A stretch of 64,000 nt of DNA from Aromatoleum sp. (GTDB lineage Bacteria; Pseudomonadota; Gammaproteobacteria; Burkholderiales; Rhodocyclaceae). Under the pieces are notes generated by a model, which saw only the letters and a program-made list of their open reading frames with translations, was not told the origin of the DNA and ran no database searches. The stretch is from positions 46,239 to 110,238 of the forward strand of contig NZ_JAKFEF010000069.1 in the NCBI RefSeq assembly GCF_036675785.1. The letters run 5' to 3'. Position numbers and translations under genes: made by a program. Positions 13,544 to 39,109 of this stretch are shown piece after piece. Position 1 is the stretch's first letter. Every line of letters starts with the position of its first letter.

Positions 13544-13954
13544 ATGCCCGTTCGGGAAAGCGCGGCTCCCATAGAGTCGGTCGTCGTCGCCGGCGAATAC
13601 GGCTACGACCCGACGCACTTCCGGCGGATGCTGGAAGCACAGGCGGTCGATGTCCTGCAGGCGGACGCGACACGCTGCGGCGGCATCACCGGGTTTCTCG
13701 GCGTCGCCGCGCTGTGCGAAGCCTTCCACGTGCCGCTTTCGAGCCACTGCGCGCCGTCCCTGCACCTGCCGCTGTGCTGCGCCGCGCGGCCGACGGTCCA
13801 TCTCGAATATTTCCACGATCACGTGCGCATCGAACAGCTCCTGTTCGACGGCGCCGTGCAACCGTTGGACGGCCTGCTCTCCCCGCTTGACGACCGGCCC
13901 GGCCTGGGCCTCGTGTTCAAGGGACAAGACGCCCGATGCTTCAGGAACCCGTAG
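13544..13954 (+). pseudogene. 3' remnant (about 135 codons) of an enolase-superfamily (mandelate racemase/muconate lactonizing enzyme-like dehydratase) gene
   Basis: VRESAAPIESVVVAGEYGYDPTHFRRMLEAQAVDVLQADATRCGGITGFL...HLEYFHDHVRIEQLLFDG matches only the C-terminal barrel part of the family. No N-terminal capping domain or metal-ligand region is found in any frame upstream. Confidence 0.75.
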
Positions 13955-16872
13955 ACATCAGCGCGCTGTCGCGGCGCGGCGGCGTCGATGCGAAGTCACT
14001 GGAGCGCGAACTTCGCGACGCGATCTCGGGCGAGGTGCGCTTCGACGCCGGCAGCCGCGCGCTCTACGCGACCGACGCGTCGAACTATCGGCAGGTCCCG
14101 ATCGGCGTCGTGATTCCGCGCAGCGTCGACGACGTCGTGCGCACGGTCGCGCTGTGCCGGCAGCATCGCGCGCCGATCCTGTCGCGCGGCGGCGGCACGA
14201 GCCTGTGCGGCCAGTGTTGCAACGTCGCGGTCGTGATGGATTTCTCGAAGTACCTGAACCGCATTCTCGAAATCGACGTCGAGCACAAATTCGCGCGGGT
14301 CGAACCGGGTGTCGTCCTCGACGATCTGCGCGGCGCCGCCGAGCCGCACGGGCTCACGTTCGCGCCCGACCCGGCCACCCACACGCACAACACGCTCGGC
14401 GGCATGCTCGGCAACAATTCCTGCGGCCCGCATTCGGTGATGGGAGGCGAAACGACGCACAATGTCGTCGAACTCGACATCCTGACCTACGACGGCCTGC
14501 GGATGACCGTCGGCGCCACGGACGACGAGACCTTCGAGCGCATCGTCGGCGAAGGCGGCCGGCGGGCCGAAATCTATTGCGAGCTGCGCGATCTTGCCGC
14601 GCGCCACGCGGACGAGATCCGCCGCCGCTTTCCGCCCATCCCCCGCCGCGTATCGGGTTTCAACCTGCCGCCGCTGTTGCCCGAAAACGGCTTCCATGTC
14701 GCCTGCTCGCTGGTCGGCTCCGAGGGCACGTGCGTCACCGTGCTCGAAGCGAAGCTTCGACTCGTCGACTGGCCGCCGGCGCGCTCGCTGCTCGTGCTCG
14801 GCTACCCGAGCGTGTTCGAGGCGGCAGACCACGTCCCGATGGTCATGGAAGCCCGGCCGATCGCGCTCGAAGGCTTCGACGATCGTCTCATCGCGGACAT
14901 GAAGGCGATGCAGCTCCATCCGCGCAACATCGCTCTGCTCCCCGAGGGCGCCGGCTGGCTGCTCGTCGAGTTCGGCGGCGCCGACGGCGCGCAGGCCGAC
15001 GAACGCGCGCAAGCCCTGATGGACCGGCTGCGGCAAACACCGCTACCGCCGCAGATGGCGCTCTACCACGATCCGCGAGAGCAACAGCAGATCTGGAAGG
15101 TCCGCGAGTCCGGACTCGGCGCCACCGCGCACCTGCCGGACAAGCCGCTCACGTGGGAGGGCTGGGAGGACTCTTCGGTGCCGCCGGAGAGACTCGGCGA
15201 ATACCTGCGCGAGTTGCGCGCGCTGCTCGAAAAGCACGGTTACGAAGGCGACCTGTACGGCCACTTCGGCCAGGGCTGCGTGCATACGCGCATCGATTTC
15301 GATCTCGAAAGCGCGGACGGCATCCCCAGGTTCCGCGAATTCATCCACGCCGCCGCACGGCTCGTGACGCGCCTCGGCGGGTCGATCTCGGGCGAGCACG
15401 GCGATGGCCAGTCGAAGGCGGAACTGCTCCCAATCATGTACGGCGACGAGGTGATGCAGGCGTTTCGCGAGTTCAAGACGATCTGGGACCCGGGCAACCG
15501 GATGAATCCCGGCAAGGTCATCGACGCGCACCGCGCCGACGAGGACTTGCGCCTCGGCATCGCCTACGATCCCCCGCGCGTCGCGACGCAGTTCGCGTAT
15601 GGCTCGGACAACCACGACTTCGCGCGTGCGCTGCTGCGCTGCGTCGGGGTCGGAGAATGCCGCGGCAAAACCGGCGTGATGTGCCCGAGCTACATGGCGA
15701 CCGGCGAGGAAATGCATTCGACGCGCGGTCGCGCGCGGCTGCTGTTCGAGATGTTGCGCGGCGAAACGCTCACCGGCGGCTGGCAGGAACCGGCCGTCAA
15801 GGAGGCGCTCGACCTCTGCCTGTCGTGCAAGGGCTGCAAGGGCGAATGCCCGGTGCACGTGGACATGGCGACGTACAAGGCAGAGTTCCTGTCGCACTAT
15901 TACGAAGGACGCCGGCGGCCCGCGGCGGCCTACGCGTTCGGGCTGATCGACCGCTGGGCGCGGCTCGCGTCGCGCATGCCGCGCGTCGCGAATTACTTCT
16001 CGCAGCACGAGCCGTTCGCCGCGATCGCGAAGCGGGTGATCGGGATCGCGCCGCAGCGCTCGCTTCCGGCCTTCGCGGTGAAACCCTTCACCCACACTTT
16101 CTGCAATCGCCGCGGCGCCGGCACGCCGGTGATCCTCTGGCCCGACACGTTCAACAACTACTTTCACCCGGAAGTCGCGCAGGCGGCCGCTGAAGTCCTC
16201 GACGGCGCCGGTTTCGAGGTGCGCGTGCCGCGCATCCACCTGTGCTGCGGGCGGCCGCTGTACGAATTCGGCATGCTCGACCGCGCCCGCCAATACCTGC
16301 TCCGCATCCTCGACACGCTCGACGCCGAAATCCGCCAAGGCATTCCGATCGTCGGCCTCGAGCCGGCCTGTGTCACCGTCTTTCGCGAGGAGCTCCCCGA
16401 GATCCTGCCGGACAACGAGCAGGCGATGCGGCTGAGCCGGCTGGTTTTCCCGCTCGCCGAATTTCTCGCGCAGCACGCGCCCGACTTCCCGTTCGCGCCG
16501 CTCCGCCGCGAGGCGCTGGTCCACGGCCACTGCCACCAAAGGGCGATCCTTGGAATGGACGCCGACGCCGCGCTGCTGGGGAAGCTCTGCCTCGATTTCC
16601 GCATCCTCGATTCGGGCTGTTGCGGCATGGCGGGCTCGTTCGGTTTCGAGAAGGCGAAGTACGAAGTTTCGCTGCGCTGCGGCGAGCGCGTGCTGCTGCC
16701 CGCGGTCCGCAAAGCCGACGACAGCACGCTGATCATCGCCGATGGGTTCAGCTGCCGCGAACAGATCCTGCAGACGACGCCGCGCCGGCCGGTCCATCTC
16801 GCGCAGGTGCTGCGCCTCGCGATGACAGCCAAGCCGGCCGCCACCCGGATCTCGCCGGAGCGGCGCGAGTGA
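13936..16872 (+). CDS. FAD-binding (PCMH/GlcD-like) plus 2x[4Fe-4S] plus CCG-domain (GlcF-like) fusion oxidoreductase, YdiJ-like
   Basis: 978 aa. FAD domain (PIGVVIPRSVDDVVRTVALCRQHRAPILSRGGGTSL), ferredoxin motifs (CVGVGECR..., CLSCKGCKGECP) and CCG motifs (HLCCGRP, SGCCGMAGSFG). Confidence 0.9.
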   Translation: MLQEPVDISALSRRGGVDAKSLERELRDAISGEVRFDAGSRALYATDASNYRQVPIGVVIPRSVDDVVRTVALCRQHRAPILSRGGGTSLCGQCCNVAVVMDFSKYLNRILEIDVEHKFARVEPGVVLDDLRGAAEPHGLTFAPDPATHTHNTLGGMLGNNSCGPHSVMGGETTHNVVELDILTYDGLRMTVGATDDETFERIVGEGGRRAEIYCELRDLAARHADEIRRRFPPIPRRVSGFNLPPLLPENGFHVACSLVGSEGTCVTVLEAKLRLVDWPPARSLLVLGYPSVFEAADHVPMVMEARPIALEGFDDRLIADMKAMQLHPRNIALLPEGAGWLLVEFGGADGAQADERAQALMDRLRQTPLPPQMALYHDPREQQQIWKVRESGLGATAHLPDKPLTWEGWEDSSVPPERLGEYLRELRALLEKHGYEGDLYGHFGQGCVHTRIDFDLESADGIPRFREFIHAAARLVTRLGGSISGEHGDGQSKAELLPIMYGDEVMQAFREFKTIWDPGNRMNPGKVIDAHRADEDLRLGIAYDPPRVATQFAYGSDNHDFARALLRCVGVGECRGKTGVMCPSYMATGEEMHSTRGRARLLFEMLRGETLTGGWQEPAVKEALDLCLSCKGCKGECPVHVDMATYKAEFLSHYYEGRRRPAAAYAFGLIDRWARLASRMPRVANYFSQHEPFAAIAKRVIGIAPQRSLPAFAVKPFTHTFCNRRGAGTPVILWPDTFNNYFHPEVAQAAAEVLDGAGFEVRVPRIHLCCGRPLYEFGMLDRARQYLLRILDTLDAEIRQGIPIVGLEPACVTVFREELPEILPDNEQAMRLSRLVFPLAEFLAQHAPDFPFAPLRREALVHGHCHQRAILGMDADAALLGKLCLDFRILDSGCCGMAGSFGFEKAKYEVSLRCGERVLLPAVRKADDSTLIIADGFSCREQILQTTPRRPVHLAQVLRLAMTAKPAATRISPERRE

Positions 16873-17792
16873 GCGTCTGGCTCCAGTCCGCCCTCGCTCC
16901 GCGCGGTCCGGAAGCGGCGGCGATCGCCGAAATCACCTGGGTCCTCGTCGCCGCGGGCGCGGTGATCTTCGCGATCGTGCTCGTGATCGCCGCGCTCGCG
17001 CTGTTCCGGCCGCACGCCTGGCTCGGCAGCACCCGCCTCATCGTCGCGGGCGGCATCGTCTTTCCGGTCGTCGTGCTGTCGGCGCTGCTCGTCTACGCGC
17101 TGCTCGCGGCGCCGCGGCAGGCCGCCGCCGGACCCGCGGACGTCGTCGTCGAAGTGGTCGGCCACCAGTGGTGGTGGGAGGTGAATTATCTCGACGACAG
17201 CGGCGCGCCCGACTTCACGACGGCGAACGAGATCCACATCCCGGTCGGTCGGGAAGTCGAGCTGAGGCTGCACTCGGCCGACGTGCTGCACAGCTTCTGG
17301 GTGCCCGCGCTCGCCGGCAAGCTCGACCTGATTCCCGGCAAGGACAACCGGCTGCGCCTCGCGGCCGATCAGGCGGGGACGTTCCGCGGCCAGTGCGCCG
17401 AGTATTGCGGCGGACCCCACGCGCAGATGGCGCTTTTCGTCGTCGCCGAAGATCCCGCGCGTTTCGACGCGTGGCGAACGGCGCAGCGCGAACCGCAGCG
17501 AGGCATCGCTGACCCGCAGGCGACCGAGGGCAGGCAGCTCTTCCTCGCCCATTGCGGGTCGTGTCACACACTGCGCGGGACCGTGGCCGAAGGGAAGCTC
17601 GGACCGGATCTGACGCACTTCGGCAGCCGCATCGCGCTCGGCGCCGGCATCCGGCCGAACCACACGGGCGCGCTCGCCGGCTGGATCGCCGGCAACCAGC
17701 GGATGAAGCCGGGCAACCTGATGCCGGAAATCCGCGATCTGGATGGCGACGAACTGCGGACGCTGTCCGATTGGCTCGGGACGCTGAAGTAG
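16869..17792 (+). CDS. Cytochrome c oxidase subunit II with C-terminal haem c domain (caa3-type IIc)
   Basis: GTG start overlaps the upstream stop (GTGA). Two TM helices, CuA motif HSFWVP...CAEYCGGPHAQM, and a C-terminal CGSCH. Confidence 0.9.
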   Translation: MSVWLQSALAPRGPEAAAIAEITWVLVAAGAVIFAIVLVIAALALFRPHAWLGSTRLIVAGGIVFPVVVLSALLVYALLAAPRQAAAGPADVVVEVVGHQWWWEVNYLDDSGAPDFTTANEIHIPVGREVELRLHSADVLHSFWVPALAGKLDLIPGKDNRLRLAADQAGTFRGQCAEYCGGPHAQMALFVVAEDPARFDAWRTAQREPQRGIADPQATEGRQLFLAHCGSCHTLRGTVAEGKLGPDLTHFGSRIALGAGIRPNHTGALAGWIAGNQRMKPGNLMPEIRDLDGDELRTLSDWLGTLK

Positions 17793-18878
17793 ATGCTCGA
17801 GAACCTCTCCGTGTGGGGCAACGTCGGGGTTTTCGCGCTCGGCGCGGCGATCGTGTGGGCGGCCGGCACACGGGTCGCCCGCTATGCCGATGCAATCCAG
17901 CGCCGCACCGGGATGGGCGAGGCGGTCGCCGGGATGCTGCTCCTCGGCCTGATCACCGCCCTCCCCGAAGTGGCGGTCACCGTGACCGCTTCGCACAGCG
18001 GCGACGCGACGCTGGCCGTCAATAACATCCTCGGCGGCTTGGCGCTGAATGTCGCGATCCTCGCGAGCGCGGATGCGGCGATTCGCCGGGAAGCGCTCAC
18101 CGCGACGGTCGCTTCGGCGCTGCCACTGCTGCAGGGTGCGCTGCTGGTGCTGATGCTCTCGATCGCCGCCGCGGCGACGGTCGCGGGAGACCGGCAGATC
18201 TTCGGCGTCGGCATTTGGTCCTGGCTGCTGCTCGGGATCTATGGGCTGAGTGTCGAGCTCGTCCGCAAGACCCGCGGCCACGAAGCGTGGGTGCCGACGA
18301 AAGGCAAGGCGCTCGCCGGCGCAACGAGTGCTGCGCAGCGCGGTGACAGCGCCAAGACGGGCGAGAGGAACGAAAGGGCCAGGAGCGAAAGGGACAGGAG
18401 CGGCTCTCCGCTCCCGGCCTTGATCGGCAAGACCGCGCTCGGCGCCGGCGCGATCCTCGCTGCGGGCTACGCGATTGCCCGCAGCGGCGAGGCGCTCGCC
18501 GAGCAGACGGGGCTCGGCGCGAGCTTCTTCGGCGCGGTATTCCTCGCGGTATCGACCTCGCTGCCCGAGATCACGATCGTCTTTTCGTCGGTCCGCCTCG
18601 GCCGCTATGCGATGGCGGTGTCCGACATCCTCGGCGCGAACCTCGTCGGCCTGACCCTGCTCTTCGTCGCCGACGCGGCGTACCGCGGCGGTCCGGTATT
18701 GGCGCAAGTCGACCGTTTCGGGACGTTCGCCGCACTGCTCGCGATCGCGGTGACCGCCCTCTTCATCGCCGGCCTCCTCGAACGGCGCCACGCGATGGTG
18801 CTGCGCATGGGCGTCGACTCGCTCGCCGTGATCGGCACCTACCTCGCCGGCGTCGTCGTGCTGTATCGCCTCAAATGA
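17793..18878 (+). CDS. CaCA-family (YrbG/Na+:Ca2+ exchanger-like) cation antiporter
   Basis: Two internal halves carry alpha-repeat-like motifs GLITALPEVAV and AVSTSLPEITIV, joined by a charged central loop. ATG immediately follows the TAG of subunit II. Confidence 0.8.
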   Translation: MLENLSVWGNVGVFALGAAIVWAAGTRVARYADAIQRRTGMGEAVAGMLLLGLITALPEVAVTVTASHSGDATLAVNNILGGLALNVAILASADAAIRREALTATVASALPLLQGALLVLMLSIAAAATVAGDRQIFGVGIWSWLLLGIYGLSVELVRKTRGHEAWVPTKGKALAGATSAAQRGDSAKTGERNERARSERDRSGSPLPALIGKTALGAGAILAAGYAIARSGEALAEQTGLGASFFGAVFLAVSTSLPEITIVFSSVRLGRYAMAVSDILGANLVGLTLLFVADAAYRGGPVLAQVDRFGTFAALLAIAVTALFIAGLLERRHAMVLRMGVDSLAVIGTYLAGVVVLYRLK

Positions 18879-21382
18879 CGACGCTGCCCAATCCCGCGCC
18901 GCGACCGGAAGGCGAAGTCGACGAACTGCGACGACTCTGGAGCCGGCCACGCGGCATTCGCTGCATCACCGTCATCAACAACAACTACATCGGCATCATG
19001 TACGTCGGCGCGGCGTTCCTGTTCTTCGTGCTCGCCGGCATCCTCGCGCTGCTGATGCGCGTGCAGCTCGCGGTGCCGGAGAACGACTTCCTCGGCCCCG
19101 ACCGCTACAATCAGCTCTTCACGATGCACGGCACCGTGATGATGTTCCTGTTCGCGGTGCCGGCGGTCGAGGCGATGGGCATCCTGCTGCTGCCGAACAT
19201 GCTCGGCGCGCGCGACCTGCCGTTCCCGCGCCTGTCCGCCTACGCGTTCTGGGCCTATCTCGTTGGCGGGCTGGTGTTCTTCGCGAGCATCTTCAAAGGC
19301 TGGGCGCCCGACGGCGGCTGGTTCATGAACCCGCCGTTGACGAACGAGACGTACTCGCCGGGCTACAACGCCGATTTCTGGCTGCTCGGCATCGGCTTCA
19401 TCGAAATCTCGGCGATCGCCGGCGCGGTCGAGATCGTCGTCGGCGTGCTGCGCACGCGCGCGCCCGGGATGACGCTCGGCAGGATGCCGATCTTCGCGTG
19501 GGCGATGCTCGTGTTTGCGGTGATGATCATCTTCGCGTTTCCGGCGGTGATCCTCGCGACCGCGCTGCTCGAACTCGAACGCGCGTTCCACTGGCCGTTC
19601 TTCGTCGCCGAACTCGGCGGCGACCCGCTGCTGTGGCAGCACCTGTTCTGGTTCTTCGGCCACCCGGAGGTCTACATCATCTTCCTGCCGGCCGCCGGCA
19701 TGGTTTCGATGATCGTGCCGACGCTGGTGCAGGCGCCGCTCGTCGGTTACCGCTACGTCGCGCTGGCGCTCGCGGCGACCGCGTTCCTGAGCTTCGGCCT
19801 GTGGGTGCACCACATGTTCGCGACCGGCATTCCGCAGCTGTCGCTGTCGTTCTTCCAGGCCGCGAGCATGGCGGTCGCGATTCCGGCGGGCGTCCAGGTG
19901 TTCGCGTGGATCGCGACGCTCGCGCACGGCCGCGGGCGCGTGAAGATGACGACACCCGCGCTCTTCGTCCTCGGCTTCCTCTTCACCTTCGTCCTCGGCG
20001 GGCTCACCGGCGTGATGGTCGCGGTGATCCCGTTCGACTGGCAGGCGCACGACAGCTACTTCATCGTCGCCCACCTGCATTACGTGCTGATCGGCGGCAT
20101 GGTGTTTCCGCTGTTCGCGGGCTTCTACTACTGGATGCCCTACACGAGCCGCCACCGTCTGTCGGAACGGCTCGGGCGCTGGGTCTTCGGGCTGATGTTC
20201 GTCGGCTTCAACATCGCGTTCTTCCCGATGCACATCACCGGGCTCGCGGGGATGCCGCGCCGGGTCTATACGTACGCCGCGGGCTACGGCTGGGACGCGC
20301 TCAATTTCGTGTCGACGGTCGGCGCGTTCCTGATCGCCGCCGGCGTGCTCGTCTTCATCGTCGATGTCGCGCGGAAGTTCCGCATGGCGTCCGAGGACAA
20401 CGCCGGCAACGTCTGGAACGCCGGCACGCTCGAATGGCTGCCGAACGGCAATTATTCCAGCCGCAGCATTCCGATCGTCACGAGCCGCGAGCCGCTGTGG
20501 GATCAACCGAACCTCGCTGCGGACGTCGAGGCCGGTCACTACTACCTGCCGGGTGCGCCGACCGGCGGGCGCGAGACGATCGTCACGAGCGCGCTCGATG
20601 CCAGACCGGAGTTCCTGCTGCGCATGCCGATGCCCGGCTGGGCGCCGCTGGTCGCGGCGTGGTTCACCGCGGCGTTCTTCCTGCTGCTGACGGTGAAGCT
20701 CGTCGTACCCGCGGCGGTCTGCGGCGTCATCGCGATCGCCGGCATGCTGCACTGGGCGTGGGCACTCGACCCGGCGCCGCCCGCCGCGCCGATCGAGATC
20801 GGCGGCGGCATCCACCTGCCGGCCTATCTGAGCGGCCCGCGCTCCCAGTCGTGGTGGGGCGTCGTCGTGCTGCTGCTCGTCTCAGCTGCGCTCTACGGCT
20901 GCGCGGTGTTCTCCTACCTTTACCTGTGGACGGTCGCGCCGTGGACATGGCCCGCGCCCGCGCAGCTTCCGGGCCTCGCCTACCCGTTCGCCGAGGCGCT
21001 GCTGCTCGGCGCGAGCAGCCTCGCGGTCGGGCTCGCGAACCGCCGGCTCTCGGCGGGCCAGCGCCGGATCGGCGCCCCGCTCGTCGCCGGCCTGCTTCTC
21101 CTGGTCGCCGCCGTCGCCGTCGAGGTCTGCGCACAACGCGACTTTCCGCCGGCCGCTTCGGCCTACGGCGCAATCGTCTGGCTGCTCGCGTCGCTCGCCG
21201 GTTTCCAGGCGTTCGTCGTCGTCACGATGGCGGTGTTCACGCTCGCGCGGGCGGCAAGCGGCAAGCTCGACCGGGTGCGCCGCGTCACGTTCGACAACGC
21301 CCGGCTCTTCTGGCATTACACCGTCGGGCAGAGCCTCGTCGGCGTCGCCGTCGTGCATGGCTTTCCGCGGATGCTCGGATGA
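18875..21382 (+). CDS. Haem-copper oxidase subunit I fused to subunit III (835 aa)
   Basis: TMHGTVMMF, WFFGHPEVY, WVHHMF and AHLHYVL, with a C-terminal 5-TM subunit III-like part (LFWHYTVGQ). Confidence 0.9.
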   Translation: MTTLPNPAPRPEGEVDELRRLWSRPRGIRCITVINNNYIGIMYVGAAFLFFVLAGILALLMRVQLAVPENDFLGPDRYNQLFTMHGTVMMFLFAVPAVEAMGILLLPNMLGARDLPFPRLSAYAFWAYLVGGLVFFASIFKGWAPDGGWFMNPPLTNETYSPGYNADFWLLGIGFIEISAIAGAVEIVVGVLRTRAPGMTLGRMPIFAWAMLVFAVMIIFAFPAVILATALLELERAFHWPFFVAELGGDPLLWQHLFWFFGHPEVYIIFLPAAGMVSMIVPTLVQAPLVGYRYVALALAATAFLSFGLWVHHMFATGIPQLSLSFFQAASMAVAIPAGVQVFAWIATLAHGRGRVKMTTPALFVLGFLFTFVLGGLTGVMVAVIPFDWQAHDSYFIVAHLHYVLIGGMVFPLFAGFYYWMPYTSRHRLSERLGRWVFGLMFVGFNIAFFPMHITGLAGMPRRVYTYAAGYGWDALNFVSTVGAFLIAAGVLVFIVDVARKFRMASEDNAGNVWNAGTLEWLPNGNYSSRSIPIVTSREPLWDQPNLAADVEAGHYYLPGAPTGGRETIVTSALDARPEFLLRMPMPGWAPLVAAWFTAAFFLLLTVKLVVPAAVCGVIAIAGMLHWAWALDPAPPAAPIEIGGGIHLPAYLSGPRSQSWWGVVVLLLVSAALYGCAVFSYLYLWTVAPWTWPAPAQLPGLAYPFAEALLLGASSLAVGLANRRLSAGQRRIGAPLVAGLLLLVAAVAVEVCAQRDFPPAASAYGAIVWLLASLAGFQAFVVVTMAVFTLARAASGKLDRVRRVTFDNARLFWHYTVGQSLVGVAVVHGFPRMLG

Positions 21383-21678
21383 ACGCCGATCTCGCCCGCC
21401 TGCGCATGCTCTCCGGCGTCGTCATCTGGGCGCTGCACTTCGCCGCGATCTACGGTTTCACGGCCGTCGCGTGTGCACGCCGGTTCCCCGGCCCGGTGCC
21501 GCTCGCGGTCGCGCTGGCGACGCTCGTCGGCGCAACCGCGTGCGCGCTCATCGTCATCGCCGAGCTGCGCGGGCGGCAGGGGTTCGAGTCCTGGATGACC
21601 GGCGGGCTCGTGGCGATCGCGCTGCTCGCGATCGTCTGGGAAGCCGTACCGGTTCTCGTCGTCACGCCATGCGAGTGA
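21379..21678 (+). CDS. Small 3-TM membrane protein (possible oxidase subunit IV-like accessory subunit)
   Basis: ATGA overlap with subunit I/III. 99 aa with three hydrophobic segments and no recognisable motif. Confidence 0.6.
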   Translation: MNADLARLRMLSGVVIWALHFAAIYGFTAVACARRFPGPVPLAVALATLVGATACALIVIAELRGRQGFESWMTGGLVAIALLAIVWEAVPVLVVTPCE

Positions 21679-22097
21679 GCACTGCAGACCTTTCCAGCGG
21701 TTCGCTTTTCCCGGCCGCCATCCGGGCGACGTCGCCGCACCGTGTGCTCGGTCGGTTCGCCGCTGTCGTCTGCATCGTCCTCGCCGGCTGCGGTGACAAT
21801 CCGCCGCCTGCACTGGGCGGCGACCCGGACAACGGGCGCCTGCTGCTGCGCCAGTTCGGCTGCGGCAGTTGCCACCGCATTCCCGGGGTCGCGGCGGCAC
21901 GCGGCAACGTCGGCCCGTCGCTGGAGGGCGTCGCGACGCGCGTCTATCTCGGCGGGGTGTTGCCGAACACGCCCGAAAACATGGTCCGGTGGATCCGCAA
22001 CCCGAAGCAGTTCGACCCCGAAACCGCGATGCCGGACCTGCCTATCGCCGAAGGACAGGCGCGCGACATCGTCGCCTACCTTCAGGGCCTGAAATGA
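21669..22097 (+). CDS. Monohaem c-type cytochrome, lipoprotein
   Basis: Lipobox VLAGCG, one CGSCH, and a distal Met in ETAMPDL. Confidence 0.85.
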   Translation: MRVSTADLSSGSLFPAAIRATSPHRVLGRFAAVVCIVLAGCGDNPPPALGGDPDNGRLLLRQFGCGSCHRIPGVAAARGNVGPSLEGVATRVYLGGVLPNTPENMVRWIRNPKQFDPETAMPDLPIAEGQARDIVAYLQGLK

Positions 22098-22915
22098 AAA
22101 GACTTCTTTTCGCGCTGTCCGCCCTCGCAGCGACCGTTGCCGTCGCCGCGGCCGTCGTCATCTATGGCGGTCTCTACGACATCTCGGCGACGGATCAGCA
22201 CCTCGCGCCGACCTACCGGATTCTCGATGTGGCGATGCGACGCTCGATCGCGCGGCGCGCGGCGAACATCGTCGTGCCGCCGCTCGACGCCCCGCCGATG
22301 CTCGACCGCGGACTCGCGCTCTACGACGCGCATTGCGTGCAGTGTCACGGCGCGCCGGGCGTCGCACCGGAACCGTTCGCGCTCGGCCTGACGCCGGCCC
22401 CCGCGAACCTCGCCCACACGGCTCGCGCGTGGCCGCCGGCCGACATCTACTGGGTGGTGCGCAACGGCATCAAGATGACGGGCATGCCCGCGTGGCAGTT
22501 ACGGCTCAGCGACGCCGACCTCTGGGCCGTCGTCGCGTTCGTCGAGAAGCTGCCGGAGCTGTCGCCCCGCGATTACGACGGACTGACCGGCGCGCTCGGG
22601 CCGGCCCGCACCGAGGAGATGCCGGTGCGCAACCGGCCCGACCCGGAACGCGGCAAAACGGCGATGCAGCAATACGCCTGCGTGACCTGCCACCGGATCC
22701 CCGGTCTCGTCGGGCCACACGCGCCGGTGGGCCCGCCACTCGACGGCATCGGCAGCCGGACCTACATCGCCGGCGTGCTGCGCAACGAGCCCGACAACAT
22801 GATCCGCTGGCTGCGCTCGCCGCAGGACGTCAACGCCGCGAGCGCGATGCCGAATCTCGGCGTCGGCGAGCAGGACGCGCGCGACATCGCGGCCTATCTC
22901 GCGACGCTGGATTAG
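22094..22915 (+). CDS. Membrane-anchored dihaem c-type cytochrome
   Basis: N-terminal TM helix with CVQCH and CVTCH. The second domain is paralogous to the preceding monohaem protein. Confidence 0.85.
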   Translation: MKRLLFALSALAATVAVAAAVVIYGGLYDISATDQHLAPTYRILDVAMRRSIARRAANIVVPPLDAPPMLDRGLALYDAHCVQCHGAPGVAPEPFALGLTPAPANLAHTARAWPPADIYWVVRNGIKMTGMPAWQLRLSDADLWAVVAFVEKLPELSPRDYDGLTGALGPARTEEMPVRNRPDPERGKTAMQQYACVTCHRIPGLVGPHAPVGPPLDGIGSRTYIAGVLRNEPDNMIRWLRSPQDVNAASAMPNLGVGEQDARDIAAYLATLD

Positions 22916-23150
22916 GGCGCGCACTCCCCGACCGCCCCCGGCTGCGACGGACGAGGTCCGGGGGCACGCGGATTGCATGTTTTCCGGGTCGCGAGCGTGA
23001 CGAAAAACCGGACGGGCCGTGACCATGGCGTTTGATCACGCGGTCGAGTCCGACAACGACACTCGCATACCCCGCCCACTTCCGCGCCCCGCACCGGGAC
23101 AGCCGATCCCGGGCCGCTCGCCAAACCGGAGTCTTGCCAGGAGAAGGTCC

Positions 23151-24461
23151 ATGGATCGCAGCCCGCTCCTCCTATCCGTCGTGTTTTCGCTTGGACTCGG
23201 CGCGTGCGCGGAACACGCGCAGCTTTTGCCGTCGGCCAGCGTGGGGCCCGATCCGACGCTGCCGCCGCCGACGAAGTCGCTGATTCCCACCGTCGACATC
23301 GCGCCCGCAGCGGGATGGCCGGACGGCGTGAAGCCGACCGGACCGGCCGGCACTCGCGTCGACGCGTTCGCGACGGGGCTCGATCATCCGCGCTGGCTCT
23401 ACGTGCTGCCCAATGGCGACGTGCTCGTCGCCGAGACGAACGCGCCCGAACGGCCCGAACAGGGCAAAGGGATCAAGGGCCGCGTGATGAAGATGGTCCA
23501 GAAACGCGCCGGCGCAGGCGTGCCGAGCGCTAACCGGATCACGCTGCTGCGCGATGCGGACGGCGATGGCACGGCAGAAGGCCGCTTCGCGTTTCTCGAA
23601 GGCCTCAACTCGCCGTTCGGCATGACGCTGGTCGGACGTGACCTGTACGTCGCGAACACCGACGCCGTCGTCCGCTTCCGCTACGAGGAAGGGCAGACGT
23701 CGATTACCGCGTCCGGGACGAAGCTCGTCGACCTGCCGGCCGGCCGGCTCAACCATCACTGGACGAAGAACGTCATTGCGAGCCCCGACGGTTCGAAGCT
23801 CTACGTGACGACGGGGTCGAACAGCAACGTCGCCGAGAACGGCATCGAAGCCGAAGCCGGGCGCGCCGCGATCTGGGAAGTGGACGCGAAAACCGGGGAG
23901 CACCGCGTGTTCGCGAGCGGGCTGCGCAATCCGAACGGACTCGACTGGCACCGCGGCACGGGCAAGCTGTGGACGGTCGTCAACGAACGCGACGAACTCG
24001 GCAGCGACCTCGTGCCGGATTACCTGACGTCGGTCGCCGACGGCGCGTTCTACGGCTGGCCGTACAGCTACTTCGGCAACCGCGTCGACGAACGGGTCGT
24101 GCCGCCGCGGCCCGATCTCGTCGCGACCGCCATCAAGCCCGACTACGCGCTCGTCCCGCACAGCGCCCCGCTCGGCCTCGCGTTCGCCGACGGCAGCGCG
24201 CTGCCGCCGCCGTTCCGCAACGGGGCCTTCATCGGGCTGCATGGGTCGTGGAACCGCAGGCCGCCGAGCGGCTACAAGGTCGTCTTCGTGCCGTTCGCGG
24301 ACGGCCTGCCGAGCGGCGAGCCGATCGACGTGCTGACCGGATTCCTCTCCGCAGACGGTGATGCGTACGGCCGGCCGGTCGGCGTGGCGATCGACCGCAG
24401 CGGCGCGCTGCTCGTCGCCGACGACGTCGGCAACGTGGTCTGGCGGGTGGCGCCGCGCTGA
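23151..24461 (+). CDS. PQQ-dependent sugar (sorbosone/aldose) dehydrogenase family lipoprotein
   Basis: Lipobox LGLGAC and beta-propeller motifs ([35 protein letters not shown]). GGAGAAGG lies upstream of the ATG at 23151. Confidence 0.85.
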
Positions 24462-36220: not shown

Positions 36221-37831
36221 TCAGTGGCTCGTGCCTTCCTCGCGCGTGATCTTGTTCCAGACGTTGTACTTGCCGACCGGCTTCTTCATCGGGAGGCGCT
36301 TGACCTCCTCGAGCGTCTTCGCGTCGTAAACGATCACGGCGCCGTCCATCTCCCACAGGCTCGCGAGCGCGTAGCGCCCGTCGCGCGTGAACTCGATGTG
36401 CGCGAGCGTCTTGCCGGGGTCGGTCTTCAGTTCCCGCACGACTTCGAGCGTCTGCTTGTCGATGACCTGCAGCACGTTCTTCGCGTCCCGGCTCATCATC
36501 GAGTCGACGAAGGCGTAGCGGCTGTTCTCGTGGCTGCGCAGGAAGAAGCCGGGGCCGCGCGTCGGGATGCGTTTGACGACGCTCCAGTCCTGCATGTCGA
36601 TGACCGTGACTTCGGCGGCCTTCAGGTTCGTGCTCGCCATCACGCGCCGGCCCTGCCAGTCCCAGGTGATCCCCGACCCCAGGTGCGGCATGCCGTCGAG
36701 CGGCAGATCGGCGATCTTGCGGCGCACGTCCAGCTGCACGACCTGACCGACGCCGTCGCGCGACGCGCCGAGCAGCGTCGAGTAGTCCTGCGTGAAGAAG
36801 AAGTCATCGAGCACTTCGGCGAGTTCGGTCCGCCGCGGGTTGAGGTAGCCGCGGACGAACGCGCCCTCGCGGTACTGGTAGTCGTGCACGTAACCGGTCG
36901 GGATTTCCTCGGCGGTCTGGTCGTAGCTGATCTCCCACACTTCGGGCACGTCCTTCAGCGCGGCGACGAAGGAGTTGCGCGGTGTCGCCTCATAGACTGC
37001 GGACACGCGCGACGTCTTCTTGCCTTCGCGGTCGGTGACGTCGATCGACTTCAGCAGGTTCAGGTCGCCGTCGAGCAGCACGAGCGTGTGGGGTAGGTAG
37101 TTCGCGACCGCGACGTGGCGGCCGTCGGGCGACACCGCGACGTTGCGCGTATTGATGCCGGCGCGGATCTCGGCGACGACCTTGAGGTTCCACAGGTCGT
37201 ACTTCGTGACCCAGCCGTCGCGCGAGCCGAAGAACACGTAGCGGCCGTCCTGCGTGAACTTTGGCCCCCCGTGCAGCGCGTGGCGCGACGGGAAGCGGTG
37301 GATCGGCTCGAGGCGGTCGCCGTCGAGCACCGACACGTGGTGGTCGCCGCTCTCGACGACGACGAAGAGGTTCATCGGGTCGGCGTCGAACACCGGCTTC
37401 GCAGAGAGGGTCGCGGGATCGACATGCGCGATGCGCGACGCGCGGATGTCTGCCTCACTCCATTTTGGCGCCGGCACGACCGGCGAGTAGATCCACGCGC
37501 CGAGCGCGGCGATCTCGTCGGCGTTCAGGACGCCGCCGAACGCCGGCATCTGCGTCGCCGTGCGTCCGCCGCGAATCACGTCGAGCGCTTCGTCCTTCTT
37601 CAGGCGCGCGAGGTTTTCCGGCAGCAGCGCCGGACCGGTGCCGCCGAGGCGGTCCGCGCCGTGGCACGTCGCGCAATGTTGTTGGTAGTGACTTATGGGG
37701 CCTGGCGTGTCGTCCGCACGGGCGGACGCATAGCCGGCAGCCGCCGCGACGACGAGTGCGGCTGCGGCGACGATTCGGTACGGCGCACGGGCAGCGATGG
37801 TGCGTGGCGCATTGCGGGCTTTCATCGTCAA
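36221..37831 (-). CDS. nirN: NirN (cytochrome c plus d1-type beta-propeller; dihydro-haem d1 dehydrogenase)
   Basis: Signal peptide, CATCH haem c domain and a NirS-like propeller (HHVSVLDGD, HGGPKFTQDGRY). Position after nirJ. Confidence 0.85.
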   Translation of the reverse strand: MTMKARNAPRTIAARAPYRIVAAAALVVAAAAGYASARADDTPGPISHYQQHCATCHGADRLGGTGPALLPENLARLKKDEALDVIRGGRTATQMPAFGGVLNADEIAALGAWIYSPVVPAPKWSEADIRASRIAHVDPATLSAKPVFDADPMNLFVVVESGDHHVSVLDGDRLEPIHRFPSRHALHGGPKFTQDGRYVFFGSRDGWVTKYDLWNLKVVAEIRAGINTRNVAVSPDGRHVAVANYLPHTLVLLDGDLNLLKSIDVTDREGKKTSRVSAVYEATPRNSFVAALKDVPEVWEISYDQTAEEIPTGYVHDYQYREGAFVRGYLNPRRTELAEVLDDFFFTQDYSTLLGASRDGVGQVVQLDVRRKIADLPLDGMPHLGSGITWDWQGRRVMASTNLKAAEVTVIDMQDWSVVKRIPTRGPGFFLRSHENSRYAFVDSMMSRDAKNVLQVIDKQTLEVVRELKTDPGKTLAHIEFTRDGRYALASLWEMDGAVIVYDAKTLEEVKRLPMKKPVGKYNVWNKITREEGTSH

Positions 37832-37843
37832 TCCATTCGAAGG

Positions 37844-39046
37844 TCAGGCGCTGCGGCGGCGCGGAAACGGCGTCGTCACGACGCGCTCGCTGCCGTAGTC
37901 CGCCGCCGCGACGCCGATTTCCTCGTCGCTGAGATAACAGGCCGGATCTTCGACCCACGGGTCGCCGGTGATCTGCTGCGCGCGCACGCGCGAGCTGCCG
38001 TTGCAGATCGCGAGGAACTTGCACTCGCCACAACGTCCGACGACCTGGCGCGGATGACGCTTCAGCCCCGCCATCAGCGGGTCCGAGACGTCAGTCCAGA
38101 TTTCCGAGAACGGCCGCTCGCGCACGTTGCCGAGCGGCACGTGCCACCACATCGTGTCGGGATGGACGACACCGAGATTGTCGATGTTCGCGACATTGAC
38201 GCCGCTCGCGTTGCCGCCCCATTGCAGCAGCTTCGCGCGGATATGCTCGGCGCGGTCGGGAAAGCGGCGCGCGACCCAGTGATACATGTAGACACCGTCG
38301 GCATCGTTGTTGCCGGTGACGAATTCCTTCTCGATGCCGCGCCGGTGCAAATCCAGGCAGGTGTCGAACAAGAGATCCATCGCGCCGCGCGTCGTCTGGT
38401 GCCGCGCGTCGTCACCGCGGTACTTGTTGCCGCGGCCGGCGTAATTGAGGTGCGAAAAATAGAACTTGTCGATGCCTGCGTCCTCGACCAGATGCAGCAA
38501 CGCCGGCAGATCGTGCGCGTTGTCCTCGGTCATCGTGTAGCGCACGCCGACCTTGATGCCGCGCTCGAGGCACAGCCCGATGCCGCGCATCGACGCATCG
38601 AACGCGCCGTCGAGGCGGCGAAACTTGTCGTGCGTCGCGCCGATGCCGTCGAGACTCACGCCGACGTAATCGAAGCCGGTTTCGGCGATCGCGTCGATGT
38701 TCGATCGGTCGATCAGCGTGCCGTTGCTCGACAGGCCGACATAGAACCCCATCGCCTTCGCGCGTCGGCCGATTTCGAAGATGTCGGGTCGCAGCAGCGG
38801 CTCGCCGCCCGACAGGATCAGCACCGGCACGTGGAAGGCCTTGAGGTCGTCCATGACGCGGAAGACTTCGTCGGTCGACAGCTCGCCCGGGAAGTCCTTG
38901 TCGGCCGAGATCGAGTAGCAGTGCTTGCAGGTGAGGTTGCAGCGGCGGATCAGGTTCCAGATCACGACCGGACCGGGCGGGTTGCCGCGCGGGCGCGCCG
39001 GGGTCGGGTGGTCGAGTTCGCGGATGAAGCTCGAGATGCGGAACAT
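37844..39046 (-). CDS. nirJ: Radical SAM haem d1 biosynthesis protein NirJ
   Basis: CNLTCKHCY radical SAM motif, a SPASM-like Cys-rich C-terminus, and nir-cluster context. Confidence 0.9.
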   Translation of the reverse strand: MFRISSFIRELDHPTPARPRGNPPGPVVIWNLIRRCNLTCKHCYSISADKDFPGELSTDEVFRVMDDLKAFHVPVLILSGGEPLLRPDIFEIGRRAKAMGFYVGLSSNGTLIDRSNIDAIAETGFDYVGVSLDGIGATHDKFRRLDGAFDASMRGIGLCLERGIKVGVRYTMTEDNAHDLPALLHLVEDAGIDKFYFSHLNYAGRGNKYRGDDARHQTTRGAMDLLFDTCLDLHRRGIEKEFVTGNNDADGVYMYHWVARRFPDRAEHIRAKLLQWGGNASGVNVANIDNLGVVHPDTMWWHVPLGNVRERPFSEIWTDVSDPLMAGLKRHPRQVVGRCGECKFLAICNGSSRVRAQQITGDPWVEDPACYLSDEEIGVAAADYGSERVVTTPFPRRRSA

Positions 39047-39067
39047 GGGACTCTCCTAGGTGCGGTG

Positions 39068-39109
39068 ATTACACCGGAGACGCGGCGCCGGCAAAATGAT
39101 GCGGGTCAA
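39068..39109 (-). promoter_or_regulatory. FNR/Dnr-type box TTGAC-CCGC-ATCAT (39096-39109) plus -10-like TGTAAT (39068-39073) upstream of nirJ
   Basis: Exactly 22 nt separate the box and the hexamer, as expected for a class II site centred at -41.5. GGAGAG and the nirJ ATG lie about 20 nt further downstream. Confidence 0.6.

What the first reader, a model, noticed from the sequence alone, without database searches (positions are those of the whole stretch)
16869..21382. Oxidase keeps all catalytic motifs but appears to lack the K-channel and the D-channel asparagines
I aligned subunit I by eye to bovine COX1 and R. sphaeroides CoxI from memory. The catalytic residues are conserved:
- the low-spin haem His (TMHG)
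- GHPEVY, giving H263, E265 and Y267 (codons at 19661-19675)
- the HH pair H312/H313 (19808-19813)
- AHLHYV

The proton-channel residues are not:
- IPTGVKVFSW is IPAGVQVFAW here, an ungapped 30-residue match after HHMF. The K-channel Lys (bovine K319, R. sphaeroides K362) is Gln341 (19895-19897), and the nearby Thr is Ala.
- In subunit II the LE(I)xWTxxP glutamate at the K-channel entrance aligns with LIVAGGIVFP (about 17036-17065), so Glu becomes Ile.
- In the D pathway the Asp is kept (GARDLPFPR, D114), but RMNNMSFW is RLSAYAFW, so both Asn are lost, and the GGFGNW Asn aligns with Ile/Leu.

A canonical A-type oxidase needs the K pathway for reduction of the binuclear centre. Loss of cytoplasmic proton pathways is a hallmark of NO reductases and other non-pumping family members.
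Basis: partly seen in the sequence, partly recalled or inferred. Interest (0 to 1): 0.7.

Follow-up and report, generated by a model that had tools for sequence, protein, structure and literature searches.

The report
Cytochrome oxidase with rewired proton channels
This is a real cytochrome c oxidase from a large, widespread but biochemically unstudied bacterial subfamily: the lysine of one proton channel is always glutamine, and the asparagines of the other channel are swapped for buried glutamates, so it probably moves protons differently from textbook oxidases.

Summary
Computed alignments put Gln341 at the K-channel lysine, Ala338 at its threonine, Ser121/Ala122/Ile103 at the D-channel asparagines, and no glutamate at the subunit II K-channel entrance. 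All six histidines, Tyr267, Glu265, Asp114 and the CuA and haem c sites are intact.

It is not an accident of one gene. Gln is found in 121/121 close homologues and in 70/80 related loci from nine phyla.

- Glu186 sits exactly at the third D-channel asparagine (N207).
- Glu99 lies one helical turn from N121.
- Glu177 replaces the conserved G198.

The D pathway therefore looks rebuilt, not lost. The K pathway looks vestigial.

The enzyme has the caa3 architecture (II-cyt c, I+III fusion). It belongs to the catalogued but uncharacterised 'COX operon type a / A1 subtype a' group, and Sinorhizobium meliloti pSymB carries an orthologue. The active site is that of an O2 reductase, so the NOR-like reading is not supported.

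Best guess: an accessory cytochrome c oxidase that takes its protons through a single carboxylate-rich D-type path, with altered or absent pumping. I rate it a new variant of a known kind, of moderately high interest.

The parts
16869..17792 (+). coxII-c: subunit II with two TM helices, a CuA cupredoxin domain and a C-terminal cytochrome c domain
   Evidence: TIGR02866 CoxB 151.9 bits (cutoff 147.7), Pfam COX2 + Cytochrom_C. CuA motif H141-x34-C176-x-E-x-C180-x3-H184-x2-M187 and CGSCH at residue 229. GTG start overlaps the upstream stop as GTGA. No Glu at the K-channel entrance position in TM2, residues 57-66, nt 17037-17066.
17793..18878 (+). Na_Ca_ex (CaCA-family) membrane protein inserted between coxII and coxI-III; probably a dispensable passenger
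   Evidence: Pfam PF01699, two stretches; TIGR00367 only 58 bits against a cutoff of 180. TAG|ATG and ATGA junctions. Same position in S. meliloti pSymB, L002, L026 and L085/L086. Reduced to an in-frame 83-aa remnant in Azoarcus sp. PA01. More distant homologues are not next to oxidases.
18875..21382 (+). coxI-III: fused subunit I + subunit III (835 aa), the catalytic subunit
   Evidence: Pfam COX1 E=1.6e-142; TIGR02891 670.8 bits. phmmer to T. thermophilus caa3 I+III (2yev_A) covers residues 31-824. AF2 model pLDDT 80, pTM 0.85; Foldseek best hit 2yev_A with TM 0.82/0.88 over 817 columns.
19895..19897 (+). Gln341 (CAG) at the K-channel lysine position (K362 in E. coli/R. sphaeroides, K319 bovine)
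   Evidence: Q in 121/121 close homologues and in 70/80 GTDB loci.
19886..19888 (+). Ala338 at the K-channel threonine position (T359)
   Evidence: The position is variable in the clade (S 36, T 26, A 12, N 4, M 2).
19430..19432 (+). Glu186 at the D-channel asparagine N207 position (helix IV)
   Evidence: By the definition of the set, E in all 80 E/E/Q sequences and N in all 44 canonical K-bearing sequences. Unconditioned: >=99% conserved among the 121 close homologues and invariant in alignment A1.
19403..19405 (+). Glu177 at the conserved G198 position (helix IV, level of S197/S200/S201)
   Evidence: E in 66/80 GTDB loci; G in 40/44 canonical sequences.
19169..19171 (+). Glu99 in helix II, four residues before the N121/N124 position
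   Evidence: E in 69/75 E/E/Q sequences; G/A/I/S in canonical sequences.
19181..19183 (+). Ile103 at D-channel N121 (Rs) / N124 (Ec)
   Evidence: V/I/M/L in the clade; N in 42/42 canonical sequences.
19235..19240 (+). Ser121-Ala122 at D-channel N139/N140 (Rs), N142/N143 (Ec)
   Evidence: S in 121/121 and A in 120/121 close homologues.
19214..19216 (+). Asp114, the retained D-channel entrance aspartate (D132 Rs / D135 Ec)
   Evidence: D in 121/121 close homologues; D 54, E 10, N 11, S 1 in the wider clade.
19661..19675 (+). HPEVY: CuB ligand H263, D-channel terminal E265, cross-link Tyr267
21379..21678 (+). 99-aa predicted 3-TM protein, ATGA-coupled to coxI-III; possible small (subunit IV-like) subunit
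   Evidence: A 99-aa gene sits at the same position in L084, L085 and L086, with no Pfam hit. A 123-aa hypothetical follows ctaD in S. meliloti.
21744..22097 (+). Monohaem cytochrome c, probable lipoprotein (LAGC lipobox); the start may be 21669 or 21744
   Evidence: Pfam Cytochrom_C, CGSCH. A 119-aa cyt c sits at the same place in L084/L085.
22097..22915 (+). Dihaem cytochrome c
   Evidence: Pfam Cytochrome_CBB3 x2 / Cytochrom_C. Conserved next to the oxidase in many loci.
23019..24461 (+). Glucose/sorbosone dehydrogenase-family (GSDH) periplasmic protein; candidate electron donor to the cytochromes c
   Evidence: Pfam GSDH. Homologues lie near the oxidase in L009, L010, L012, L020, L022 and in S. 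meliloti pSymB, annotated 'sorbosone dehydrogenase family protein'.

Best explanation
The region is an operon for an accessory caa3-type, A-family haem-copper cytochrome c:O2 oxidoreductase. Its parts are subunit II fused to cytochrome c, subunit I fused to subunit III, a 99-aa membrane protein and two further c-type cytochromes. A periplasmic GSDH-type dehydrogenase lies beside it.

It belongs to a large monophyletic 'non-lysine' branch of the A family. Within that branch it falls in the E/E/Q clade, whose signature is E99, I/V103, E177, E186 and Q341 together with loss of the subunit II entrance Glu.

Shown here:
- The O2-reductase catalytic centre, the CuA site and haem c are intact.
- The K-pathway protonatable groups are gone and nothing protonatable replaces them.
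- The D-pathway asparagines and hydroxyls are replaced by small residues plus three strictly conserved glutamates, while D114 and E265 stay.

Inferred:
- The K pathway no longer works as a proton conductor. Gln341 is kept for a structural, dielectric or water-orienting role.
- All substrate protons, and any pumped protons, enter through a remodelled, wider, carboxylate-lined D-type path: D114 -> E186/S121 -> E99 (+/- E177) -> E265.
- An acidic residue at N139 or N207 uncouples pumping in R. sphaeroides and P. denitrificans without loss of turnover. The enzyme therefore probably has a reduced or zero H+/e- pumping stoichiometry.
- It would then act as an electron sink for periplasmic cytochrome c-linked dehydrogenases.
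For: Identity as an A-family oxidase:
- Pfam COX1 E=1.6e-142, TIGR02891, and best PDB sequence hits to A1 oxidases at E=1e-135 to 1e-91, against ba3 at 1e-8.
- Foldseek best hit T. thermophilus caa3 I+III, TM 0.82/0.88.
- All haem and CuB ligands, Tyr267 and E265 conserved in 119-121 of 121 homologues.
- CuA and CXXCH motifs intact.

K pathway:
- Q341 invariant.
- Subunit II Glu absent across the clade.
- T359 and S299 positions drift (S/T/A/N/M; S/A/T) while Q is fixed.
- No clade-specific ionisable residue in helices VI-IX.

D pathway:
- E186 lies exactly at N207.
- E99 and E177 are 92-100% conserved within the clade and essentially absent from the 44 canonical sequences (1 of 44 has E at 197, none at 198, 207 or 120).
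- S145, S201 and T211 become G/A.
- D114 and E265 are retained.
- In a sub-branch the entrance Asp is N/S/A while E207 stays. This parallels the functional R. sphaeroides D132N/N139D double mutant, and N139D/N207D are uncoupled but active (PMC7196763).

Phylogeny and context:
- The NJ tree shows K->Q arose first, with the D-channel glutamates added later in one branch. That points to an ordered, selected remodelling.
- The operon is tightly coupled to three c-type cytochromes and lies beside a GSDH dehydrogenase in several genomes, including S. meliloti pSymB.
- S. meliloti also has a canonical chromosomal ctaCDGE (PMC5929573), which fits an accessory role.
Against: - No biochemical data exist for any member that I could find.
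- The orientation of E99, E177 and E186 toward the channel is inferred from helical register and from 'N199/N207 faces N131/N139' (PMC7196763), not from coordinates. The AF2 tool returns no coordinates.
- By ideal helix geometry E177 (G198) lies roughly 180 degrees from N207 and may point away from the channel.
- In canonical enzymes the D pathway cannot substitute for the K pathway in the reductive half-cycle, so a D-only mechanism needs an unproven change in gating.
- Polar Gln341 with S278, S331 and Y267 could still hold a water wire, as the lysine-free K-analogue of B-family oxidases does.
- Pumping could be normal: the D132N/N139D mutant pumps.
- The NJ tree is a simple distance tree without support values.
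Confidence: 0.55

Rival explanations
1. A functionally ordinary two-channel, proton-pumping caa3 oxidase. Gln341 with S278, S331, Y267 and bound waters forms a lysine-free K-type water wire, as in B-family ba3 oxidases. The glutamates merely retune the D channel.
For: Q is invariant rather than replaced by assorted hydrophobic residues, as happens in other K-less A-family lineages (PMC8239418 supplementary table). This suggests a specific polar role. S278 (S299), S331 (T352) and Y267 are conserved. B-family and several NOR families use lysine-free K-analogue channels (PMC11214002). The R. sphaeroides D132N/N139D mutant restores pumping.
Against: The subunit II entrance Glu is lost clade-wide. 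The T359 position is Ala here and variable across the clade, and S299 is Ala in a sub-branch, so no continuous conserved H-bond chain exists. From my own recollection, unverified here: K362 substitutions including Gln inactivate E. coli bo3 and R. sphaeroides aa3.
Confidence: 0.22
2. A non-O2 or side-activity enzyme. One version is an NO reductase. Another is a cytochrome c peroxidase or O2-scavenging, non-electrogenic oxidase that does not need the K pathway.
For: K-pathway mutants of canonical oxidases are blocked only in the reductive O->E->R steps (PMC7196763). From memory, they retain peroxidase turnover. The window also carries a nirS denitrification cluster 15-28 kb away and no norCB. 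A-family oxidases have weak NO-reductase activity (PMC11214002).
Against: The active site is O2-reductase type: Tyr267 sits at H263+4, where cNOR has the FeB Glu, and there are three CuB histidines and E265. NOR families lack the Tyr (PMC11214002). The nir cluster is separated from the oxidase by thrS, pheT and other housekeeping genes. The oxidase occurs in many genomes and on S. meliloti pSymB without nir linkage. D114 on the cytoplasmic side is retained.
Confidence: 0.1
3. A cation-linked oxidase. The three membrane-buried glutamates form a Na+/Ca2+ site, and the co-transcribed Na_Ca_ex protein is a functional partner.
For: The Na_Ca_ex gene is translationally coupled between coxII and coxI-III here and in Sinorhizobium, Devosia, Oxalobacteraceae and metagenomic relatives. 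Three conserved carboxylates in TM helices are unusual for an oxidase.
Against: Most E/E/Q loci lack the antiporter: 77 of the 80 GTDB loci. In Azoarcus sp. PA01 it has decayed to an 83-aa in-frame remnant while the oxidase remains 80% identical. Its more distant homologues stand alone in ion-homeostasis or stress contexts. There is no direct evidence for cation binding.
Confidence: 0.06
4. A decaying or non-functional paralogue whose channel residues have drifted.
For: It is an accessory copy in genomes that hold canonical oxidases, and its TIGR02891 score sits exactly at threshold.
Against: The catalytic residues and the substituted positions themselves are strictly conserved across nine phyla. 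The 835-codon frame is intact with GC3 0.92. The operon is tightly coupled.
Confidence: 0.02

Closest known systems
Thermus thermophilus caa3 oxidase (PDB 2YEV; subunit I/III fusion + subunit IIc)
   Same: Same architecture: subunit I fused to III, and subunit II fused to a monohaem cytochrome c. It is the best structural match (TM 0.82/0.88, 817 aligned columns) and the sequence match spans both domains.
   Different: The Thermus enzyme is A2 type (YS motif instead of the helix VI Glu, from established knowledge) and is listed with an intact K-channel (PMC8239418 Table S1). The window enzyme has HPEVY (A1 motif), Gln for the lysine, and Glu at the N207 and neighbouring positions. Identity is only 31%.
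'COX operon type a' / 'A1 type, subtype a, COX1-3 fused' of Degli Esposti (PMC4013037, PMC6431628, PMC8239418)
   Same: COX2-cytochrome c fusion, COX1-COX3 fusion of about 840 aa, and proteobacterial distribution (R. palustris BisA53 and Variovorax are cited as examples). Association with Caa3_CtaG is seen in the S. meliloti locus.
   Different: These papers treat it as an operon or phylogenetic category. The accessible supplementary table records 'K-channel: yes', and its residue table has no entry with Gln at K354. The E/E/Q signature is not described in what I could read. The BBA 2020 review was not available.
Canonical A1 oxidases (R. sphaeroides / P. denitrificans aa3, E. coli bo3, B. subtilis aa3-600)
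   Same: 35-41% identical core, all metal ligands, HPEVY, D132-equivalent Asp, R481/R482, and the Mg-site His/Asp.
   Different: They have K362, T359 and E101(II), and N121/N139/N207 with S142/S200/S201. Here these are Q, A, V/I; I, S, E; and A, S, A. Extra residues E99 and E177 are present.
Engineered D-pathway variants N139D / N207D (R. sphaeroides) and N131D / N199D (P. denitrificans), and D132N/N139D
   Same: A carboxylate is placed at the asparagine 'neck' of the D channel. Natural E186 sits at the N207 site. A sub-branch of the clade also lacks the entrance Asp, like D132N/N139D.
   Different: Those are single or double laboratory substitutions in a K-pathway-competent enzyme. Here Glu rather than Asp occurs together with two more glutamates, loss of other channel hydroxyls and loss of the K lysine.
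Other A-family lineages with 'modified' K-channels (Acidithiobacillus rus-operon aa3, Sulfobacillus, Thermoplasmatales COX1-3, and others; PMC8239418)
   Same: The K354/K362 lysine and the subunit II Glu are both replaced. This shows K-channel loss recurs in family A.
   Different: Those carry hydrophobic residues (V/I/L/M/F/A) at the lysine site, often have extra N-terminal TM helices, and come from acidophiles. This clade has an invariant polar Gln, is found in neutrophilic soil and water Proteobacteria and eight other phyla, and has the three-glutamate D-channel signature.

Membership tests
Haem-copper oxidase superfamily, O2-reductase active site | Six conserved histidines (two for the low-spin haem, one for the high-spin haem, three for CuB) and the cross-link tyrosine | tested here: met
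   H85, H402; H400; H263, H312, H313; Y267. All are 121/121 among close homologues. Pfam COX1 E=1.6e-142.
A family, type A1 | Helix VI motif GHPEVY with the D-channel terminal glutamate | tested here: met
   GHPEVY at residues 262-267. E265 is E in 119 and D in 2 of 121.
A family (canonical definition by proton channels) | K channel: Lys (K362), Thr (T359), and subunit II Glu (E101 Rs / E89 Ec) | tested here: not met
   Q341, A338, and V59/I58 in subunit II.
A family (canonical definition by proton channels) | D channel: entrance Asp plus the Asn triad (N121, N139, N207) and Ser/Thr lining | tested here: not met
   D114 is present, but N121->I103, N139->S121, N207->E186, S142->A124 and S201->A180.
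caa3-type oxidase architecture (T. thermophilus type) | Subunit I+III fusion and subunit II with a C-terminal cytochrome c | tested here: met
   The 835-aa protein aligns to 2yev_A over both domains. COX2 + Cytochrom_C domains and CGSCH are present.
caa3-type oxidase (haem composition) | Haem a and a3 actually bound | not testable with these tools
   The haem type cannot be read from the sequence, and no ctaA/ctaB gene was seen in the operon.
COX operon type a / A1 subtype a (Degli Esposti) | COX2-cyt c and COX1-3 fused genes adjacent, often with Caa3_CtaG | tested here: inconclusive
   Both fusions are present. No CtaG-like gene was recognised in the window operon, but 'cytochrome c oxidase assembly protein' is present in the S. 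meliloti orthologous cluster.
Nitric oxide reductases (cNOR/qNOR and the newer eNOR/sNOR/gNOR/bNOR/nNOR) | No cross-link Tyr; FeB site with a ligating Glu (cNOR/qNOR) or other family-specific active-site changes; related to the C or B families | tested here: not met
   Tyr267 sits at H263+4, three CuB histidines are present, and A-family sequence and structure affinity holds. NOR features are as summarised in PMC11214002.
B family (ba3-type) | Single lysine-free K-analogue channel, no D channel, sequence affinity to ba3 | tested here: not met
   phmmer E about 1e-8 to ba3 chains, against 1e-135 to A1 oxidases. D114 and E265 are retained.
CaCA (Na+/Ca2+ exchanger) family, for the inserted gene 17793-18878 | Two Na_Ca_ex alpha-repeat domains with conserved acidic residues | tested here: met
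   PF01699 gives two stretches. The alpha-repeat-like motifs ITALPE and STSLPE are visible in the translation. It scores below the equivalog cutoff of TIGR00367 (58 vs 180 bits), so substrate specificity is unknown.

The most novel reading that the evidence does not exclude
A widespread clade of A-family oxidases may work with a fourth kind of proton-channel architecture. The clade spans hundreds of species in at least nine phyla and includes the model organism S. meliloti. The proposed architecture has no K pathway and a single D-type pathway built from a ladder of buried glutamates (E99/E186/E177 -> E265). It would be a natural counterpart of the engineered 'uncoupled' N139D/N207D and 'relocated carboxylate' D132N/N139D enzymes, with a different, possibly zero, H+/e- pumping ratio.
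Probability: 0.35. Interest if true: 0.8.

Novelty: new variant of a known kind. Interest (0 to 1): 0.6.

Why it matters
Textbook accounts hold that A-type oxidases need the K-pathway lysine to reduce the binuclear centre and need the D-pathway asparagine 'neck' to keep pumping coupled.

Here evolution has fixed Gln at the lysine site and Glu at the asparagine site in a very large clade of otherwise orthodox oxidases. If these enzymes are active, they are natural experiments on three points:
- how substrate protons can reach the active site without the K pathway;
- why carboxylates in the D-channel neck uncouple pumping;
- how channel architectures evolve. The tree suggests the order K->Q first, followed either by D-channel glutamates or by E286->W.

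An orthologue sits on pSymB of the genetically tractable S. meliloti, so the question can be tested directly.

There is also a practical consequence. Genome-based estimates of respiratory efficiency that count every 'CtaD' as a 4 H+-pumping aa3 oxidase may be wrong for these genes. Some relatives are also mislabelled 'cbb3-type' in databases.

Tried and rejected
1. Alignment shift. Rejected: phmmer against PDB chains and MAFFT against E. coli CyoB give the same register, with ungapped flanks.

2. NOR or B-family membership. Rejected on active-site residues and E-values.

3. Link to the nirS cluster in the same window. Rejected: the cluster is 15 kb or more away, behind thrS and pheT, and is not syntenic in relatives.

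4. Na_Ca_ex as an obligatory partner or alternative proton path. Rejected: it is absent from most clade loci and has decayed in Azoarcus sp. PA01. Its distant homologues are not oxidase-linked.

5. Compensating protonatable residues near the K path. None were found in a clade-versus-canonical column scan.

6. Literature on this clade:
- Searches for K-channel/Gln variants, Bradyrhizobium bll4479-81, guessed S. meliloti SMb tags, S. meliloti terminal oxidases and K362Q found no characterisation.
- The Pseudomonas KF707 Caa3/Ccaa3 oxidases are a different, unfused type.
- The BBA 2020 review by Degli Esposti is not held.

7. Structure-based channel inspection. An AF2 model was obtained (pLDDT 80), but the tool gives no coordinates, so side-chain orientation could not be examined.

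8. Exact-sequence look-up of the window protein found no record. The closest named relative is Azoarcus sp. PA01, at 80% identity.

Full report
ANATOMY

The finding's coordinates cover three tightly packed + strand genes.
- coxII-c, 16869-17792. It has two TM helices, an intact CuA motif H141-x34-C-x-E-x-C-x3-H-x2-M and a C-terminal CGSCH cytochrome c domain.
- A Na_Ca_ex family membrane protein, 17793-18878.
- coxI-III, 18875-21382, an 835-aa fusion of subunit I and subunit III.

The junctions are GTGA, TAG|ATG and ATGA.

The operon continues downstream.
- An ATGA-coupled 99-aa three-TM ORF, 21379-21678.
- A probable lipoprotein monohaem cytochrome c, to 22097.
- A dihaem cytochrome c, 22097-22915.
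- A glucose/sorbosone-dehydrogenase-family gene, 23019-24461.

A YdiJ-like FAD/FeS oxidase (13936-16872) abuts the start.

CHECK OF THE OBSERVATION

phmmer against PDB chains aligns the query without gaps through both motifs. 'AIPAGVQVFAW' aligns with 'SIPTGVKIFNW', and 'FPRLSAYAFW' with 'FPYLNNLSFW', of B. subtilis aa3-600.

I fetched E. coli cyoABC from NC_000913 and aligned CyoB with the query and 120 database homologues. Results, in E. coli/R. sphaeroides numbering:
- K362 -> Q341 (121/121 Q).
- T359 -> A338 (S 88, A 24, T 9).
- N142 -> S121 (121/121 S).
- N143 -> A122.
- N124 -> I103 (I 78, V 43).
- D135 -> D114 (121/121 D).
- E286 -> E265.
- Y288 -> Y267.
- All six histidines are kept.

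In subunit II, the canonical LE(I/V)xWTxxP glutamate is kept in the K-bearing relatives L078 and L079. It corresponds to V59/I58 of LIVAGGIVFP in the window, and no member of the clade has an acidic residue there.

The third D-channel asparagine, N207 (GINF in CyoB), aligns with Glu186 (GAVEIV).

I compared 80 clade sequences with 44 canonical K-bearing relatives column by column. The only clade-specific ionisable residues in subunit I were these:
- E99: 92% E in the clade. The position is G/A/I/S in canonical enzymes and lies four residues before N121/N124 in helix II.
- E177: the G198 position, G in 91% of canonical enzymes.
- E186: the N207 position.
- Q341: the K362 position.

E177, E186 and Q341 defined the clade set, so their 100% within it is by construction. 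Unconditioned, each is at least 99% conserved among the 121 close homologues.

Several hydroxyl residues of the canonical D channel become Gly or Ala (S145, S201, T211). The two ends of the pathway, D114 and E265, stay.

Nothing protonatable appears in the K-channel helices. The other K-path positions drift: T359 is S/T/A/N/M, and S299 is S/A/T. Q341 alone is fixed.

HOW WIDE IS IT

Of the best 80 loci:
- 70 have Q at the lysine site.
- 7 have A or S.
- 3 (Chloroflexota) have K.

The Q-bearing loci come from Alpha-, Beta- and Gammaproteobacteria, Gemmatimonadota, Acidobacteriota, Chloroflexota, Actinomycetota, Verrucomicrobiota, Planctomycetota, Bdellovibrionota and Rokubacteria.

Among the 150 best 50%-identity cluster representatives, 56 carry Q and 43 carry K.

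A neighbour-joining tree of 148 near-full-length cores places all non-lysine sequences in one group, sister to K-bearing Chloroflexi-type oxidases. That group contains three subgroups:
- (i) Q362 with a fully canonical D channel (Acidimicrobiia, Micromonospora).
- (ii) E286->W (HPWVY) with A/S/V/L at 362 and canonical asparagines (Burkholderia, Hyphomicrobium and others).
- (iii) The large E/E/Q clade that holds the window.

This suggests K->Q came first and the D-channel glutamates later. The tree carries no support values.

In part of clade (iii) the entrance Asp is N/S/A while E207 remains.

RELATIVES WITH NAMES

- S. meliloti 1021 pSymB (NC_003078.1, 1033638-1036160; UniProt Q92UY6) encodes a 63%-identical orthologue.
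- Its neighbourhood holds the same module: sorbosone-DH family protein, DUF2231, oxidase assembly protein, c-type cytochromes, coxII-c, sodium:calcium antiporter, ctaD(I+III) and a small hypothetical protein.
- Azoarcus sp. PA01 is 80% identical and shares the YdiJ-like gene upstream.
- 211 PLSDB plasmid records cover at least 80% of the fusion.

STRUCTURE

An AlphaFold2 model built on a 45-sequence alignment has pLDDT 80 and pTM 0.85. Its best PDB match is the T. thermophilus caa3 I+III chain 2yev_A (TM 0.82/0.88 over 817 columns), followed by bo3, actinobacterial aa3 and aa3-600.

The tool returns no coordinates, so I could not examine channel geometry.

LITERATURE

- The gene family corresponds to Degli Esposti's 'COX operon type a' / 'A1 type, subtype a, COX1-3 fused' (PMC4013037, PMC6431628).
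- PMC8239418 documents repeated K-channel loss in family A ('independently lost seven times'). However, its Table S1 marks 'subtype a COX13 fused' as K-channel 'yes'.
- The residue table of the same paper has no Gln at K354; its K-less lineages carry V/I/L/M/F/A.
- PMC7196763 summarises three points. The K channel serves only the O->E->R steps. N139D/N131D and the facing N207D/N199D uncouple pumping while keeping activity. D132N/N139D restores pumping.
- I found no biochemical work on any member of this clade.

INTERPRETATION

Shown:
- This is an intact, strongly conserved A-family O2-reductase of caa3 architecture.
- Its K-pathway protonatable groups are absent.
- Its D pathway is re-lined with glutamates.

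Inferred:
- The K path is vestigial. Q341 is kept for a structural, dielectric or water-orienting role.
- Protons enter through a remodelled carboxylate-rich D-type path.
- By analogy with N207D/N139D, pumping is likely reduced or absent.
- This would suit an accessory oxidase draining periplasmic cytochrome c-linked dehydrogenases.

Confidence is about 0.55.

Rivals:
- The main rival (about 0.22) is an ordinary pumping oxidase with a lysine-free, water-mediated K path, as in B-family enzymes.
Tyr267 sits where cNOR has its FeB glutamate, and all three CuB histidines and E265 are present.
- The nirS cluster elsewhere in the window (36-50 kb) is separated from the oxidase by housekeeping genes and is not syntenic in relatives.
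- A cation-coupled role through the inserted Na_Ca_ex gene is unlikely. 77 of the 80 GTDB loci lack the gene, and in Azoarcus sp. PA01 it is an in-frame 83-aa remnant.

VERDICT

It is an oxidase, not a NOR.
- Novelty: a new variant of a known kind. The family is catalogued, and K-channel loss is known in principle. The invariant Gln plus the three-glutamate signature, and its breadth, appear undescribed in the sources I could read.
- Interest: 0.6.

Noticed in passing
window 17793-18878; L082 7931-9004; L084 9753-10004; L085 8946-10004: A CaCA-family (Na_Ca_ex) gene is wedged between coxII-c and coxI-III with TAG|ATG and ATGA junctions. The same arrangement occurs in S. meliloti pSymB, Devosia (L002), an Oxalobacteraceae MAG (L026) and metagenomic relatives. 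In Azoarcus sp. PA01 only an in-frame 83-aa remnant survives (first ~27 and last ~55 residues).
   Followed up: yes
L058, L067 (Burkholderia), L060, L069, L071, L074, L081; P0132, P0155, P0169: A sister clade of I+III-fusion oxidases has HPWVY: the D-channel terminal Glu286 is replaced by Trp, with Ala/Ser/Val/Leu at the K362 site, while the D-channel Asp and asparagines are canonical. An oxidase lacking both E286 and K362 is at least as odd as the one in the window.
   Followed up: partly
L046, L049, L050, L054, L059, L061-L066 and others: In a large sub-branch of the Gln clade (Acidobacteriota, Gemmatimonadota, Mesorhizobium, Paraburkholderia, Sphingomonas) the D-channel entrance Asp is Asn/Ser/Ala while N142 is kept and the helix IV glutamates remain. 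This is a natural parallel to the R. sphaeroides D132N/N139D 'relocated carboxylate' mutant.
   Followed up: partly
window 36221-49610: A denitrification (nir) cluster with two nirS paralogues (41163-42845 on the - strand, 47877-49610 on the + strand), a NirN/NirF-like cytochrome d1 protein (36221-37831), a radical-SAM NirJ-like gene, NirT, a cupredoxin, an EB_dh-like protein, NirDL-like regulators or decarboxylase, and a tetrapyrrole methylase. No norCB was seen in the window.
   Followed up: partly
window 13936-16872: A 978-aa YdiJ-like FAD-binding/FeS/CCG oxidoreductase ends in a GTGA overlap with the coxII-c start. A homologue lies close to the oxidase in Azoarcus sp. PA01 (L084), L085, L026 and L044, which suggests a recurring association.
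   Followed up: partly
window 21379-21678: A 99-aa predicted three-TM ORF overlaps the coxI-III stop (ATGA). A 99-aa gene with no Pfam hit occupies the same place in L084, L085 and L086, and a 123-aa hypothetical follows ctaD in S. meliloti. It may be an unrecognised small oxidase subunit.
   Followed up: partly
window 18875-21382; P0003, P0034, P0081: The protein scores 670.8 bits on TIGR02891 (CtaD_CoxA) against a cutoff of 670.75. Several close relatives are named 'cbb3-type cytochrome c oxidase subunit I' in NCBI records, a misnomer for this CuA-dependent A-family enzyme.
   Followed up: no
window 23019-24461; L009, L010, L012, L020, L022; L083 3003-4556: A glucose/sorbosone-dehydrogenase-family (GSDH) gene recurs beside these oxidase operons across Beta- and Alphaproteobacteria and Gemmatimonadota. 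This hints at a dedicated periplasmic dehydrogenase -> cytochrome c -> oxidase chain.
   Followed up: partly
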